This document shows positions 14,461 to 20,915 of a DNA stretch of 48,953 bases, piece by piece. The stretch lies in IMG/VR virus record IMGVR_UViG_2579778802_000015. One strand, written 5' to 3'. The notes under the pieces are model-generated. The model had not been told where the DNA came from. It worked only from the letters and a program-made list of their open reading frames with translations, and ran no database searches. The first letter of the stretch is position 1. Every line of letters begins with the position of its first letter. A program made the translations under genes and the position numbers. The DNA is from a virus (Duplodnaviria > Heunggongvirae > Uroviricota > Caudoviricetes).

Positions 14461-15680
14461 TTTCCGCCTCCTGCATCCCGCCCACGTTTTGCAGCCAGAG
14501 TCCAGCCGGATGAATGAATGTCTCCGGGCTTATCGCCGGTCATGCTGTTGCAGTGCCACAACGAGCCGCCCCACGTCACTGTATCGCCGGGGTGGTAGAT
14601 TTCACCGGCTCTGAACACACCGCGGTAGAGCATCACCGGCAGGGAAAATGTTTTTTCCGTACACTGGCCACTGCTCTGCCGGATCACCACAGAGAACGAC
14701 CGTTCACTAATCATGCTGACGTCAATATCCGCCACCCCGTCAACCAGGCATTCCCATCCCCGCATCCCGTGCGTTTTTTCATACGCCCGCCAGAGTCCGC
14801 CCTGGTGTGTGGCATACGTGCCCCGGGGAAAGGATTTTTGATCGTCAATGGCGGGGAGTATTTCCAGTGCCGTGGCATCACGCCCGTCCTGCGGAACCGG
14901 CAGGGCACTCACCGCATCATTCACCGCCTGCTGCAGTACATCCGGATCGTAGTCACGACCATCACGCGGGACTGGGATATGACTTACGGCCTCTTTCACC
15001 ATCTGCTCAAGCATCGGACGCACATCATCCGGGGTGATACTTTTTCCGTCCGCCGGTAGCGGAATATTTGCGACCGCATCATTCACCGCCTTCTGCAGAA
15101 CATCGGGATCATAGTCACGACCGTCGCGCGGAACAGGAATATGGCTTACCGCCTCCTTCACCATCTGTTCAAGCATCGGACGCACATCATCCGGGGTGAT
15201 ACTTTTTCCGTCCGCCGGTAGCGGAATATTTGCGACCGCATCATTCACCGCCTTCTGCAGAACATCGGGATCATAGTCACGACCGTCGCGCGGAACAGGA
15301 ATATGGCTTACCGCCTCCTTCACCATCTGTTCAAGCATCGGACGCACATCATCCGGGGTGAGACTTTTACCGTCTGCCGGCTGCGGAATATTTGCAACCG
15401 CATCATTCACCGCCTGCTGCAGTACTTCCGGATCGTAGTCGCGACCGTCACGCGGTACCGGAATGGCCCCCACCGCATCATCCAACATCGCCTGCAGAAC
15501 AGAGCGAACCTCATCCAGCGTCACATGCTTCTGTAGTACCGCGGACAGGGAAGCCAGTTTCTCTTCAGACTGCTGCGCCTGCGCGGCCATCTTTTCTTCA
15601 AATGTACGCTGTAAATCCGTTATCACCGCGGCGAATTCTTCGCCCAGTGCACGGATAATGGACAGTTCACGTTCATTCAT
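14457..15680 (-). CDS. Virion-module protein with four tandem 56-aa repeats, function unknown
   Basis: 407 aa; repeat unit IPVPRDGRDYDPDVLQKAVNDAVANIPLPADGKSITPDDVRPMLEQMVKEAVSH occurs four times; between portal and connector genes. Confidence 0.7.
   Translation of the reverse strand: MNERELSIIRALGEEFAAVITDLQRTFEEKMAAQAQQSEEKLASLSAVLQKHVTLDEVRSVLQAMLDDAVGAIPVPRDGRDYDPEVLQQAVNDAVANIPQPADGKSLTPDDVRPMLEQMVKEAVSHIPVPRDGRDYDPDVLQKAVNDAVANIPLPADGKSITPDDVRPMLEQMVKEAVSHIPVPRDGRDYDPDVLQKAVNDAVANIPLPADGKSITPDDVRPMLEQMVKEAVSHIPVPRDGRDYDPDVLQQAVNDAVSALPVPQDGRDATALEILPAIDDQKSFPRGTYATHQGGLWRAYEKTHGMRGWECLVDGVADIDVSMISERSFSVVIRQSSGQCTEKTFSLPVMLYRGVFRAGEIYHPGDTVTWGGSLWHCNSMTGDKPGDIHSSGWTLAAKRGRDAGGGK
14825..15467. 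repeat. Four tandem copies of a 168-bp in-frame repeat (two copies identical)
   Basis: Direct DNA repeats visible at 15061-15228 and 15229-15396, with diverged flanking copies. Confidence 0.85.
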
Positions 15681-17041
15681 TTTTTCAGTATCCCCCTGAA
15701 CATCGCCTTCACCACATCATGCTCTGTTTCACTGATTGCCTTATTACCGTCAGATGCGCCGTCAGGCAGCTCGGCTGAAACTCTTTTCCCGGACGACGCG
15801 AACGGATCTTCACGGGCATCACGACGGGACAGCGCCTCCAGACTGTAGTTCTGCTGCTGAAGATACAGTGCGTCACCTCCCGCAAGAGGCGGCAGGTTCT
15901 CCCGCTTGCGGGCCTCATTGGGCGTGAGAAGCGTATTTTTCACCGCCTCACCCAGCGTTTTCATGCGCCGTTCGCTGTCCATTCGCAACAGCGTGGTGAC
16001 ATCAAACTCCGTACTCTCGTTTTCCCCCGTCTCCAGCGCCTCATCCAGTAACAGTTCAATGGACTCAATCAGCGTCTGCAGGCACTGGGAATAATACTGC
16101 TGCTCCAGCGCCTCCACGTTGTCACTGGAAGGCGGTTGTCCCACGCCAATCTTGTAGGCCGGGACACGGAACACCGAACAGACAATTTCAGCGGTCATCT
16201 TCAGTTGTTCCACCGTCTGCGCATCCACTGGTGAAAACGTCGTGGGGTTGTATTTCGCCCCGTTGCTCAGAATGGCCGTTTTTCCCGCATTTTCGCCGGT
16301 ATACCCGCTGTCCCAGTTGCTCTTCAGTTTTTTCGCATTTTCTTCCGTAATACTGCCGGGGATCTCAATCACCCCGGACGGCCTGCCGCCATTTCTGAAA
16401 AAAGACGTCGAATTTTCCTGAATATGATGCCCCTGCATGGCCGCCAGCCCGGCGGCATACACCGGCGGCAATCCTATAAGCGGATGAAAAAAACAGTTAA
16501 ACCGGTCGTGGATCACTTCCCGGGCAGGCACCGTCACCGCCTCAGTGATCCCACAGTTCCGGTCCGGCGTGATGCGGTAGAACACCTCGCCGTCATCCGC
16601 CACCAGAGGTTCAACCCGGCTCCAGTCCAGAATACGCAGTTCTTTGATCTGCCCCCGGGCATTACGGATTTTCAGCACCACCGTATTGCCGTGACGCAGT
16701 TTGGCGTTCAGCCACAGTTCAAAAAACTGGATGCGGTTCTGCTGGGCGTTGGGACGACGACAGAGGCGGGCAATATCCCCCCGGCGCGTTTCCCTGCGTA
16801 TCCCATGCGCATCCGTCTGCATAAGACGCAGCCGCATTTTGGCGATATCCTGGGATATCAGCGAAATGCACGAAAACACCGCATGAAAGGAGAGGACACT
16901 TTCCGGATCGGTTTTCACGCCCTGCTGCCAGGCACCGGCAAAGGGCTCAGCCACCGCCTGAAACAGGCTGGTCCAGCCCGCCTCTCTTACGTCACGTCCT
17001 GATTTCTGGTTTTTTCGGGTTCGCCGTAAAAGGTTCCACAT
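15677..17041 (-). CDS. Portal protein (HK97-family-like)
   Basis: 454 aa; ...FFRNGGRPSGVIEIPG...ENAGKTAILSNGAKYNP...TAEIVCSVFRVPAYKIGV... portal signature. Confidence 0.8.
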   Translation of the reverse strand: MWNLLRRTRKNQKSGRDVREAGWTSLFQAVAEPFAGAWQQGVKTDPESVLSFHAVFSCISLISQDIAKMRLRLMQTDAHGIRRETRRGDIARLCRRPNAQQNRIQFFELWLNAKLRHGNTVVLKIRNARGQIKELRILDWSRVEPLVADDGEVFYRITPDRNCGITEAVTVPAREVIHDRFNCFFHPLIGLPPVYAAGLAAMQGHHIQENSTSFFRNGGRPSGVIEIPGSITEENAKKLKSNWDSGYTGENAGKTAILSNGAKYNPTTFSPVDAQTVEQLKMTAEIVCSVFRVPAYKIGVGQPPSSDNVEALEQQYYSQCLQTLIESIELLLDEALETGENESTEFDVTTLLRMDSERRMKTLGEAVKNTLLTPNEARKRENLPPLAGGDALYLQQQNYSLEALSRRDAREDPFASSGKRVSAELPDGASDGNKAISETEHDVVKAMFRGILKK

Positions 17042-19190: not shown

Positions 19191-19253
19191 ATCAGCCTCC
19201 TGAAAATAAAAAAACCGCCGGAGCGGTTCGTGATGGTTACAGTGTGAACAGGG

Positions 19254-20915
19254 TTATATGAAAAAAACCGCATATTCTTTCTTTTTCGGTTCCGGGTTAA
19301 GGGACATCAGGGAGACCGCATTGAACAGCGCCATCAGCGGGTCAATTTTTCCCCGTCCACTGGCCTGTTTGGTGATAAGAATGGCATTACCTCTGGGCTC
19401 CACACGGGCATTACCAACGCACCAGGCCATCAGGGGCTGGTCACCATGCACCAGCACCCCTTCAGCCAGTTTGCGCTCGGTGGTTTTAATGGCCCCGCCC
19501 AGTTTCCAGCCCTGGCTTATCCCCACCACAATTCCGTCGGGGATCCCTGCTTCCGCCAGTGAATCCAGAATCTGCCCCACGCCTGACGGGTCAATACCGA
19601 TATGGTCCAGTAACTCAGCCTCATGAATGCGACGCACATACTCCGCCACTTCCGCCGTGTCATCCCCGACCCGACGGACAATCGTCATGTCTCCACAGGC
19701 CACAAAATCCTGAAAACGGGCTGCCTCACTTTTTCGTCTGGCCACCGCGGTTTCATGTGCCCAGGCATGGCCCCAGCCCAGCCATTCGCGGGTCTCCCGG
19801 TCACGCCCAATCACATACATCCCCAGCAGATCATCCAGCCCTCCGCCGTCAATCCCCACCGTCACCACATCAGCACGCTGCAGAATATCGTCCAGACTGA
19901 TGCGCCTGCCCTGCTGCTCCCAGAAATCCGCCCCCGCCCAGCGGTCAGAACGCAGGGCAAGACCAATTTCCACATTGGCATGTTTTGACATGAAGCCACG
20001 AAATGCTTCCTCACCAGCCTCCCGGGCTTTACGGTACTCCCGGTACAGAAAGGCCTCATCCACTGAATAGCCGAGATTCGGATTGACCATGGCGAGGTTT
20101 TCCATCAGCAGGTGAGCCCCGCTTTCCACCATTTCAGGAGGGTGTTCAAATATCACCGGCAGAAAGTGCGGATCATGAATTTTGCCGTCGCGCACATCCC
20201 GGGCATACTGCAGTTTCTGTCTGAACACCCCGGCTGGCGGTTCATTCGACTGGGTGGTCGTATACACCACAAACCCTTCCGGGCGGGAGGCAAGCCCGCC
20301 GATGGCTTCACGTAACATGTCCTCCGCCTTGTACTGTTTGCCAAACAGCCATAACTCATCAATCAGCGTACCCACGGACTTGATACCGGACACCGTATTC
20401 GGATCGGCTGCCACCACCTTAAGGGTGGTGTCCGTCACCCGGTGGGTGATGGTCCGGATATGTGTCTGCACCTGACAGAGGTCATCCAGATCATCGTCCC
20501 GTCGTACCATATCCCTGGCAGGATTGAAGGCGTTGGCTGCCACCTCCACAGTCGGGGCCAGAATCGTGTAACCCGCCGCCTGCCGCCAGTTCAGTAACAG
20601 CGCCGTCATCATGATCCCGGCGGCCAGTGTGGACTTGCTGTTTTTTTTGGGTATCAGAATGAACACTTCCTTGATATGGCGGACACCGGTCTGCGCATCG
20701 TAGGAGCCAAACAGAGCCGCCACCAGGTCAAACACCCACTGTGCACAGGACTCCCCGAACGTCGGGCTACCCGGTGCATCCACAATCCGCAGTTGTTTAA
20801 AAATCGCCAGGGCATGTGCGGCCTGGTCCGGATAAATCGGAGCCGGAATAATCGACAGCCCCTTTTTCAGGCGCTCTGCCCAGTCCGGGCAGGCCGTGCT
20901 CCATACAGGTATCAT
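19254..20915 (-). CDS. Terminase large subunit
   Basis: 553 aa; P-loop-like ILIPKKNSKST, nuclease region VGIDGGGLDDL, C-terminal ...GKIDPLMALFNAV. Confidence 0.9.
   Translation of the reverse strand: MIPVWSTACPDWAERLKKGLSIIPAPIYPDQAAHALAIFKQLRIVDAPGSPTFGESCAQWVFDLVAALFGSYDAQTGVRHIKEVFILIPKKNSKSTLAAGIMMTALLLNWRQAAGYTILAPTVEVAANAFNPARDMVRRDDDLDDLCQVQTHIRTITHRVTDTTLKVVAADPNTVSGIKSVGTLIDELWLFGKQYKAEDMLREAIGGLASRPEGFVVYTTTQSNEPPAGVFRQKLQYARDVRDGKIHDPHFLPVIFEHPPEMVESGAHLLMENLAMVNPNLGYSVDEAFLYREYRKAREAGEEAFRGFMSKHANVEIGLALRSDRWAGADFWEQQGRRISLDDILQRADVVTVGIDGGGLDDLLGMYVIGRDRETREWLGWGHAWAHETAVARRKSEAARFQDFVACGDMTIVRRVGDDTAEVAEYVRRIHEAELLDHIGIDPSGVGQILDSLAEAGIPDGIVVGISQGWKLGGAIKTTERKLAEGVLVHGDQPLMAWCVGNARVEPRGNAILITKQASGRGKIDPLMALFNAVSLMSLNPEPKKKEYAVFFI

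What the first reader, a model, noticed from the sequence alone, without database searches (positions are those of the whole stretch)
15677..20915. Fused prohead protease and major capsid protein placed before the portal gene
A single 645-aa ORF (17253-19190) combines an HK97-type protease domain with a capsid domain, and an in-frame internal ATG with its own SD sits at the domain boundary (about 18615). The gene order is TerL, protease-capsid, portal, whereas portal usually precedes protease and capsid. A hairpin and a 73-aa ORF lie between capsid and portal.
Basis: partly seen in the sequence, partly recalled or inferred. Interest (0 to 1): 0.4.

Follow-up and report, generated by a model that had tools for sequence, protein, structure and literature searches.

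The report
Fused protease-capsid gene of a prophage
This is the ordinary, already-annotated head-assembly gene block of a common E. coli lambdoid (Shiga-toxin-phage-type) prophage, in which the capsid-maturation protease and the capsid protein are one gene lying ahead of the portal gene; comparison with about 85 relatives suggests that the gene also makes the capsid protein alone from a conserved internal start.

Summary
On the minus strand the order is TerS, TerL, a 645-aa protease/capsid ORF (19190-17253), a hairpin, a 73-aa ORF, then the portal gene. Profile searches confirm each identity. The block is 94-98% identical to published Stx phages (2851, YYZ-2008, 1717, BP-4795, WGPS6), where the ORF is already annotated "major head protein/prohead protease". 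It occurs in 1258 of 5426 complete E. coli genomes. The fusion and the TerL, protease-capsid, portal order are fixed family traits down to 33-45% identity in Beta- and Alphaproteobacteria. The main feature is therefore already known.

The added value concerns the internal ATG (18614-18612). Taken alone, its AAGGA Shine-Dalgarno is unremarkable. Across 22 fused genes, however, codon 193 is the only one of 615 aligned codons with both a start codon and an SD-like motif in every sequence. In 62 further loci, 62 keep the start codon and 58 keep the SD. Valine substitutions are always GTG. In at least four further lineages where the two genes are separate, the capsid gene starts exactly here. I infer a nested gene that makes protease-capsid and capsid alone, analogous to lambda C/Nu3 or herpesvirus UL26/UL26.5. 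This has not been tested experimentally.

The parts
20912..21475 (-). Terminase small subunit (187 aa)
   Evidence: PF03592 E=1.3e-8 and phrog_641 E=2.3e-68
19254..20915 (-). Terminase large subunit (553 aa)
   Evidence: TerL_ATPase and TerL_nuclease Pfam domains; phrog_9 and phrog_7622
19212..19229 (-). Terminator-like hairpin followed by a T-run, between TerL and the protease-capsid gene
   Evidence: Scan hit GAACCGCTCCGGCGGTTT + TTTTATTTTC. A T-run before the SD is also present in relatives. HK97 has a putative terminator annotated just before its protease gene.
17253..19190 (-). Protease-linker-delta(scaffold)-major capsid protein fusion gene (645 aa; GTG start with AGGAGG SD)
   Evidence: PF04586 at 48-152, PF05065 at 386-635, TIGR01554 at 76.7 bits (cutoff 27.5), phrog_617 at E=2.9e-261. 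RefSeq and GenBank annotate the same ORF.
18717..19190 (-). HK97-type (S78) prohead protease domain, residues 1 to about 158; H55 and S110 are the putative catalytic pair
   Evidence: hhalign against HK97 gp4: probability 97.3%, E=2e-11, with H55 aligned to gp4 H65 and S110 to gp4 S114. H55, S110, E135 and S137 are invariant in 47 diverse homologues. This is the only confidently modelled part of the AF2 model.
18615..18716 (-). Hypervariable, predicted-disordered linker (residues about 159-192), A-rich, with a local GC trough
   Evidence: Least conserved stretch of alignment A1. pLDDT 21-34. GC 0.34 against 0.59 for the gene, and among the least structured 4.5% of windows.
18625..18629 (-). 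Internal Shine-Dalgarno-like AAGGA, 10 nt upstream of ATG193
   Evidence: Sequence. An SD-like 4-mer at 5-10 nt spacing is present in 22/22 and 58/62 related genes although the encoded residues differ.
17253..18614 (-). Nested in-frame ORF from ATG 18614-18612: delta domain plus major capsid protein alone (453 aa)
   Evidence: Start codon conserved in 22/22 and 62/62 loci. Stand-alone capsid genes and proteins begin at exactly this position. A PDB profile hit places a 385-aa 'major head protein' chain (9gyi_B), residues 3-78, on profile positions 192-269.
17217..17238 (-). 9-bp GC-rich hairpin directly after the capsid gene; no T-run in this sequence
   Evidence: Centroid fold -16.8 kcal/mol, z=-1.71. 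A positionally conserved stem-loop with different sequences occurs in relatives, with a T-run in several.
17239..17245 (-). AAGGAGG directly 5' of the hairpin; candidate hairpin-bridged ribosome-binding site for orf73
   Evidence: Sequence. GGAG(G) abuts the hairpin and the orf73 ATG follows 7-10 nt after it in the window and 15 other Enterobacterales loci (all except Rouxiella L013).
16987..17208 (-). orf73, a conserved small protein of unknown function; overlaps the portal start by 55 nt
   Evidence: phrog_829 E=3.7e-39. tblastn homologues lie in the same position in most loci. No Pfam or NCBIfam match.
15677..17041 (-). Portal protein (454 aa), HK97 type
   Evidence: PF04860 E=2.5e-81; TIGR01537 354.6 bits against a cutoff of 112
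14457..15680 (-). 407-aa repeat protein, translationally coupled to the portal gene (ATGA overlap). Outside the finding but part of the conserved module.
   Evidence: ORF list. Tandem 162-nt repeats at 14911-15464. Follows the portal gene in most related loci with enough downstream DNA.

Best explanation
The region is the head-morphogenesis block of a lambdoid (Stx-phage 2851 / Pankowvirus-type) E. coli prophage. It belongs to a large family of HK97-like head modules whose fixed order is TerS, TerL, protease-capsid, small ORF, portal, repeat protein, head-tail adaptors.

Gene 19190-17253 encodes an N-terminal HK97-type serine protease domain, a disordered linker, a helical delta (scaffolding) domain and an HK97-family capsid domain in one reading frame.

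I propose that it is a nested gene with two products:
- the full-length 645-aa protease-delta-capsid protein, from GTG 19190;
- the 453-aa delta-capsid protein alone, from ATG 18614.

Both would co-assemble through their identical capsid parts. That tethers protease domains covalently inside the procapsid, where they would cut away the linker and delta domains and degrade themselves, as in HK97 maturation.

Shown here: the domain identities, the fusion, the gene order, and conservation of a start codon with an SD and an unstructured, AT-rich context at the domain boundary. Inferred: that the internal site is used, the ratio of the two products, and the cleavage events.
For: **Identity.** Pfam, PHROG and NCBIfam matches support every call. 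hhalign against HK97 gp4 aligns its His65 and Ser114 with the invariant H55 and S110. PDB profile hits are all to major capsid proteins, including a delta-domain match that begins at profile position 192.

**Known relatives.** The block is 94-98% identical to Stx phages and to 1258 of 5426 E. coli genomes, where the gene is annotated 'major head protein/prohead protease'.

**Family-wide fusion and order.** These are shown.

**Internal start.**
- Codon 193 is the only one of 615 ungapped columns in 22 genes with a start codon and an SD 4-mer in all 22; the background rate is 7.4% per codon.
- All 62 further viral loci keep a start codon there and 58 keep the SD. Distant members often have strong (A/C)AGGAGGG.
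- The residues encoded over the SD vary (KG, KE, TG, QEV, PEEG) while the nucleotides persist, which points to a nucleotide-level constraint.
- All three fused genes with Val at the boundary use GTG.
- 133 of 148 cluster representatives have Met at the boundary, and most of the rest have Val or Leu.
- In lineages where the genes are separate (Acidovorax, Snodgrassella, L087, Burkholderia phage vB_FUBS1), the capsid gene starts exactly here. Where I read the upstream DNA, the SD is comparable in Acidovorax and Snodgrassella and lies farther from the start in L087.
- The site sits in a GC trough and in one of the least structured windows of the gene in 12 of 12 lineages tested.

**Precedent.** Nested protease/scaffold genes are described for lambda, HSV-1 and HFTV1 and for Ostreid herpesvirus.
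Against: - No expression data exist for this gene family in anything I could search.
- In the window itself the internal SD (AAGGA, -6.2 kcal/mol) is weaker than that of the primary start (AGGAGG, -10.3) and is not unusual for the gene. The short form need not be the major product here.
- The related loci are not independent, so the counts overstate the number of independent observations.
- A disordered Lys/Gly/Glu-rich linker tends by composition to contain AAGG/GGAG strings.
- The capsid domain could not be modelled (pLDDT 44).
- Direct comparison with HK97 gp5 is not significant. HK97-fold membership therefore rests on family profiles.
Confidence: 0.7

Rival explanations
1. Fusion only. Every capsid subunit is made as the 645-aa protease-capsid polypeptide, and the internal ATG and SD are an unused relic of the ancestral separate capsid gene.
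For: The primary start has the stronger SD in the Enterobacterales lineage. The internal SD in the window is statistically ordinary. My own rough volume estimate, not a tool result, is that 415 extra ~21-kDa domains would still fit inside a T=7 procapsid. The gene is annotated as a single product everywhere.
Against: A relic should decay in the most variable segment of the protein. Instead, start codon and SD persist in 22/22 and 58-62/62 loci down to 42% identity, with changing codon phase and residues. All three Val substitutions use GTG. The site keeps an unstructured, AT-rich context. Fused and split states have interconverted in several lineages without any other change at the junction.
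Confidence: 0.2
2. The conserved SD-like string is an elongation pause site that lets the protease domain fold before the delta domain emerges, not an initiation site.
For: It lies at a domain boundary within a disordered linker. Pausing at internal SD-like sequences has been proposed in the literature; this is my own recollection and I did not check it here.
Against: This does not explain the invariant start-capable codon 5-10 nt downstream, the exclusive use of GTG for Val, or the exact coincidence with the start of stand-alone capsid genes.
Confidence: 0.05
3. The long ORF is an artefact or pseudogene: a decaying prophage lost the protease stop codon, or there is a sequencing frameshift.
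For: The window is a prophage, and the neighbouring portal gene is flagged 'frameshifted' in the closest RefSeq genome.
Against: The identical architecture is present in Stx-converting phage records (Stx2a_WGPS6 is deposited as proviral DNA) and in a protein cluster of 9916 members. It is also present in about 140 of the top 150 divergent cluster representatives and in Beta- and Alphaproteobacterial loci.
Confidence: 0.02

Closest known systems
Head module of long-tailed Stx-converting and related lambdoid phages (Enterobacteria phages 2851, YYZ-2008, BP-4795; Stx2 phage 1717; Stx2a_WGPS6, genus Pankowvirus)
   Same: 94-98% nucleotide identity and up to 99% protein identity. Same genes in the same order. 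The gene is already annotated 'major head protein/prohead protease'.
   Different: Essentially nothing in the finding's core. Some of these records carry a fused 859-aa portal-repeat protein, caused by one extra G in a G-run, where the window has two overlapping genes.
Bacteriophage HK97 head genes (gp3 portal, gp4 protease, gp5 capsid protein with delta domain)
   Same: Same protease family with aligned His/Ser. Same capsid family profiles and an N-terminal delta-type scaffolding domain. Same portal, Ad1, Hc1, gp10-like and tail-terminator families. Hairpins flank the protease-capsid pair.
   Different: HK97 has the order TerL, portal, protease, capsid, with separate protease and capsid genes. 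Here protease and capsid are one ORF placed before the portal gene, with an extra small ORF and a repeat protein around the portal gene.
Nested protease/scaffold genes: lambda C/Nu3, HSV-1 UL26/UL26.5, haloarchaeal virus HFTV1 gp17/gp17.5
   Same: A long form carrying the protease and an in-frame, internally initiated short form carrying the assembly domain, so that a minority of subunits tether the protease inside the procapsid.
   Different: In those systems the shared C-terminal part is a separate scaffolding protein. Here it would be the delta domain plus the capsid protein itself. Two products are demonstrated there and only inferred here.
[quoted passage not shown]
   Same: Protease, scaffold and capsid functions in one polypeptide; a recognised annotation category.
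   Different: Not the same sequence family: the window protein scores 53 bits against NF045541, whose cutoff is 525. I did not examine their gene order or any internal starts.
Burkholderia phage vB_FUBS1 and the Acidovorax and Snodgrassella prophage modules
   Same: Same module and order (TerL, protease, capsid, small ORF, portal), 33-39% identity.
   Different: Protease and capsid are separate genes, and the capsid gene starts at the position equivalent to Met193.

Membership tests
HK97-family prohead serine protease (MEROPS S78; PF04586 / TIGR01543) | Significant match to the family profile | tested here: met
   PF04586 at 34.7 bits, above the gathering score of 21. hhalign against HK97 gp4 gives probability 97.3%, E=2e-11.
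HK97-family prohead serine protease (MEROPS S78; PF04586 / TIGR01543) | Reaches NCBI's equivalog cutoff for TIGR01543 | tested here: not met
   46.5 bits against a cutoff of 59. The domain is a divergent member; this does not contradict the Pfam-level assignment.
HK97-family prohead serine protease (MEROPS S78; PF04586 / TIGR01543) | Catalytic His and Ser (HK97 gp4 His65 and Ser114; these residue roles come from my own knowledge of the HK97 literature) | tested here: met
   H55 aligns with gp4 H65 and S110 with gp4 S114. Both are invariant in 47 homologues of 37-78% identity.
HK97-family prohead serine protease (MEROPS S78; PF04586 / TIGR01543) | Proteolytic removal of the delta domain during maturation | not testable with these tools
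   Needs protein chemistry.
HK97-type major capsid protein (PF05065 / TIGR01554) | Profile match above curated cutoffs | tested here: met
   PF05065 at 53 bits against 24.2. TIGR01554 at 76.7 bits against 27.5, covering residues 204-584. PDB profile hits are to major capsid proteins only.
HK97-type major capsid protein (PF05065 / TIGR01554) | N-terminal helical delta (scaffolding) domain | tested here: met
   Profile positions 192-269 match residues 3-78 of a 385-aa major head protein chain (9gyi_B), E=6.3e-10. Long helices are predicted at 195-222 and 229-261.
HK97-type major capsid protein (PF05065 / TIGR01554) | HK97 fold shown by structure comparison | tested here: inconclusive
   The AF2 model of the capsid part has pLDDT below 50, so I ran no fold search. 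hhalign against the single HK97 gp5 sequence is not significant.
Natural protease-capsid fusion genes | Protease and capsid domains in one uninterrupted ORF, conserved among relatives | tested here: met
Natural protease-capsid fusion genes | Membership of NCBIfam NF045541 specifically | tested here: not met
   53.3 bits against a cutoff of 525. The architecture is the same but the family is different.
Nested protease/assembly-protein genes (lambda C/Nu3 type) | In-frame internal start codon with a ribosome-binding site at the boundary between the protease and the assembly domain | tested here: met
   ATG 18614-18612 with AAGGA upstream. Uniquely conserved among 615 columns and across 62 further loci. 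Low local structure.
Nested protease/assembly-protein genes (lambda C/Nu3 type) | Two polypeptides actually produced from the one gene | not testable with these tools
   No expression or proteomic data were reachable; literature searches found none.
HK97-type portal protein (PF04860 / TIGR01537) | Profile match above curated cutoffs, for the ORF downstream of the capsid gene | tested here: met
   PF04860 at 273.8 bits against 39.1. TIGR01537 at 354.6 bits against 112.

The most novel reading that the evidence does not exclude
The whole family of protease-capsid fusion genes (at least about 140 clusters at 50% identity, from Enterobacterales to Alpha- and Betaproteobacteria) would be nested genes. 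A conserved internal ribosome-binding site and start codon yield free delta-capsid protein alongside a protease-tethered form. This would extend the lambda C/Nu3 and herpesvirus UL26/UL26.5 strategy to phages whose scaffold is part of the capsid protein. I found no description of this in the searchable literature.
Probability: 0.6. Interest if true: 0.45.

Novelty: already known. Interest (0 to 1): 0.3.

Why it matters
As found, this matters little. It is a common and correctly recognisable phage head module, already annotated in published Stx-phage genomes.

If the nested-gene reading holds, it would explain how these phages set the protease-to-capsid ratio and package the protease without a separate targeting signal. 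It would add a bacterial, scaffold-in-capsid example to an expression strategy shared by lambda, an archaeal tailed virus and herpesviruses. It would also correct annotation, since two products would replace the single entry "major capsid protein". The module sits in many EHEC prophages, so the hypothesis is directly testable in existing lysogens.

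Tried and rejected
- **Single-sequence SD statistics.** The internal SD is not exceptional within the gene, so I rejected it as stand-alone evidence.
- **AlphaFold model of the 645-aa protein from a 17-sequence alignment.** Mean pLDDT was 44 and the capsid part was unusable, so I ran no fold search.
- **hhalign of the family profile against HK97 gp5.** Not significant (probability 1%). I relied on Pfam, TIGRFAM and PDB profile hits instead.
- **RNAalifold on the post-capsid hairpin.** Most Enterobacterales share the same stem sequence and the window's version was misaligned, so only 4 pairs and almost no covariation were counted. Conservation of the hairpin rests on per-sequence folds.
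- **The 79-aa GTG ORF (17231-16992), which sits at ideal spacing after AAGGAGG.** Rejected: relatives have no start codon there, and the PHROG match supports the 73-aa frame.
- **Programmed -1 frameshift at the A6 run joining the portal and repeat-protein genes.** Rejected: relatives keep the ATGA overlap without a slippery run, and the fused version in Stx2a_WGPS6 differs by an extra G in a G-run.
- **Literature.** Nine full-text searches found fused capsid/protease annotations and nested protease/scaffold genes, but nothing on internal initiation in protease-capsid fusions. Three reviews or papers I wanted were not held.
- **PDB and NCBIfam searches for the 407-aa repeat protein and orf73.** Nothing informative.

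Full report
**What is there.** All relevant genes lie on the minus strand:
- TerS, 21475-20912
- TerL, 20915-19254
- a 645-aa ORF, 19190-17253
- a 73-aa ORF, 17208-16987
- a 454-aa ORF, 17041-15677
- a 407-aa repeat-containing ORF, 15680-14457
- head-tail adaptor, head-closure, gp10-like and tail-terminator genes

Pfam places Peptidase_S78 at residues 48-152 of the 645-aa protein and Phage_capsid at 386-635. It places Phage_portal (E=2.5e-81) on the 454-aa ORF and the terminase domains on the two upstream ORFs. PHROGs agree: phrog_617 "major head protein" covers the whole 645 aa at E=2.9e-261. NCBIfam agrees too, with TIGR01554 major_cap_HK97 and TIGR01537 portal_HK97 both above their curated cutoffs. 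Its own refutation criterion is not met.

**It is a known module.** The 7.1-kb block is 94-98% identical to 95 phage records. These include Enterobacteria phages 2851 and YYZ-2008, Stx2 phage 1717 and Stx2a_WGPS6 (genus Pankowvirus). It matches 1258 of 5426 complete E. coli genomes, with a median of six places per genome. In those records the gene is already called "major head protein/prohead protease" or "phage major capsid protein". Its 90% protein cluster has 9916 members.

Protease-capsid fusions are also a recognised annotation class elsewhere. [quoted passage not shown] The window protein does not belong to that particular family: it scores 53 bits against a cutoff of 525.

**The fusion and the gene order are family traits.** Full-length 644-648-aa homologues occur throughout Enterobacterales at 73-78% identity. 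In an exhaustive search of 1.84 billion representatives, about 140 of the best 150 clusters at 50% identity are fused proteins that cover query residues 1-640.

I fetched 28 genome loci, reaching into Betaproteobacteria (Acidovorax, Snodgrassella, Candidimonas, Burkholderiaceae) and Alphaproteobacteria (Reyranella), and 62 diverse viral contigs. In every case with enough flanking DNA, TerL lies upstream of the protease-capsid gene and the portal gene lies downstream.

HK97 itself has TerL, portal, protease, capsid as separate genes. The difference from HK97 is real, but it is old and conserved.

**Domain anatomy.** A profile of 47 homologues aligns with HK97 gp4 at 97.3% probability. His65 and Ser114 of gp4 fall on H55 and S110, which are invariant across the 47 sequences. 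That these are the catalytic residues in HK97 is my own knowledge of the literature.

Residues about 159-192 are the most variable part of the protein and are predicted to be disordered (pLDDT 21-34). Long helices start at residue 195. A PDB profile search aligns positions 192-269 with residues 3-78 of a 385-aa major head protein chain (9gyi_B) at E=6.3e-10. That is a delta-type scaffolding domain beginning exactly at Met193.

The capsid part could not be modelled well, and direct comparison with HK97 gp5 is not significant. Capsid identity therefore rests on family profiles.

**The internal start.** Codon 193 is ATG at 18614-18612, and AAGGA lies 10 nt upstream. In isolation this is unremarkable. 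21% of codons in the gene have an equally good anti-SD match upstream, and so do 11 of the 50 other in-frame ATG/GTG codons. The comparative picture is different.

1. In a codon-anchored alignment of 22 fused genes, codon 193 is the only one of 615 ungapped columns where all 22 sequences have an SD 4-mer 5-10 nt upstream. It is also the only column that combines this with a start codon in all 22. Other conserved Met columns have the motif in 0-4 sequences, and the background is 7.4% per codon.
2. In 62 further loci of 42-77% identity, 62 have ATG (60) or GTG (2) at the boundary and 58 have the SD. Distant members often have strong (A/C)AGGAGGG.
3. The residues encoded over the motif change (KG, KE, TG, QEV, PEEG) and so does its codon phase, so the constraint is on nucleotides.
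4. All three fused genes with valine at this position use GTG.
5. 133 of 148 cluster representatives have Met 3-8 residues before the conserved EQI motif, and most of the rest have Val or Leu.
6. Where protease and capsid are separate genes, the capsid gene starts precisely here. This holds for Acidovorax, Snodgrassella, viral contig L087 and Burkholderia phage vB_FUBS1. In Acidovorax and Snodgrassella it follows a comparable SD; in L087 the SD-like string lies farther from the start. Stand-alone capsid representatives also align from query residues 193-196 to their own residues 1-5.
7. The site lies in a GC trough (0.34 against 0.59 for the gene) and among the least structured 0.5-13% of windows in 12 lineages.

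**Mechanism proposed.** The gene is probably nested. The long product (protease-linker-delta-capsid) and the short product (delta-capsid) would co-assemble, so that a fraction of subunits carries a covalently tethered protease into the procapsid. The protease would then remove the linker and delta domains.

This is the logic of lambda C/Nu3, HSV-1 UL26/UL26.5 and HFTV1 gp17/gp17.5. The difference is that here the shared part is the capsid protein itself.

Use of the internal site, the product ratio and the cleavages are all inferred. In this lineage the primary SD (AGGAGG) is stronger than the internal one, so the ratio cannot be guessed. The main rival, a fusion-only gene with a relic start, cannot be excluded without expression data. 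It is, however, hard to reconcile with preservation of the site in the least conserved segment of the protein.

**Hairpin and orf73.** A 9-bp hairpin (17238-17217) follows the capsid stop codon. It is only modestly better than shuffles (z=-1.71). A stem-loop occupies the same position in nearly all relatives, with different sequences, and in several it is followed by a T-run like an intrinsic terminator. HK97 has a putative terminator annotated after gp5.

orf73 is a conserved gene of unknown function (phrog_829).

**Verdict.** The one point worth carrying forward is the family-wide conserved internal initiation site.

Noticed in passing
window 15677-15700 (portal stop and start of the next gene), compared with L001 (AP012539) and L002: The portal gene and the following 407-aa gene overlap by ATGA in the window. 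Most related Enterobacterales loci show the same ATGA overlap; other relatives have a slightly different overlap or a short gap. In Stx2a_WGPS6 one extra G in a G-run (G6 against G5, about 20 nt upstream) fuses them into an 859-aa 'portal protein', and phrog_2271 is built on that fused form. RefSeq flags the split version in the closest genome as 'frameshifted', although the split form looks ancestral.
   Followed up: partly
window 14457-15680, tandem repeat 14911-15464: The 407-aa protein after the portal gene contains 3.4 copies of a 162-nt (54-aa) repeat at 92% identity. It also has a C-terminal domain with a faint CBM_5_12-like match. The gene's length varies among relatives. It is labelled 'portal protein' in databases only through the fused variants. 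Its function is unknown and it has no PDB or NCBIfam match.
   Followed up: partly
window 17208-17245: AAGGAGG lies directly 5' of the 22-nt hairpin, and the orf73 ATG lies 8 nt 3' of it. The same arrangement, SD then hairpin then 7-10 nt then ATG, recurs in 15 other Enterobacterales loci (all except Rouxiella L013). More distant relatives instead place a conventional SD after the hairpin. This looks like a hairpin-bridged ribosome-binding site, as I recall for T4 gene 38.
   Followed up: partly
window 16987-17041: orf73 and the portal gene overlap by 55 nt, and all three forward frames are open across this stretch. A 79-aa GTG ORF (17231-16992) in the third frame appears to be spurious.
   Followed up: partly
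window 19212-19229: A terminator-like hairpin with a T-run lies between TerL and the protease-capsid gene. A T-run before the SD is kept in relatives, and HK97 has a putative terminator annotated just upstream of its protease gene.
   Followed up: no
window 21766-22131 (minus strand): A 121-aa HNH endonuclease ORF lies just upstream of TerS and is annotated as such in the closest genome. As I recall, HNH-terminase pairing is typical of HK97-like cos phages.
   Followed up: no
window 1-22000 against 22000-48953: GC content is 0.55-0.59 across the structural genes but 0.43-0.53 in the rest of the window, consistent with a mosaic lambdoid prophage.
   Followed up: no
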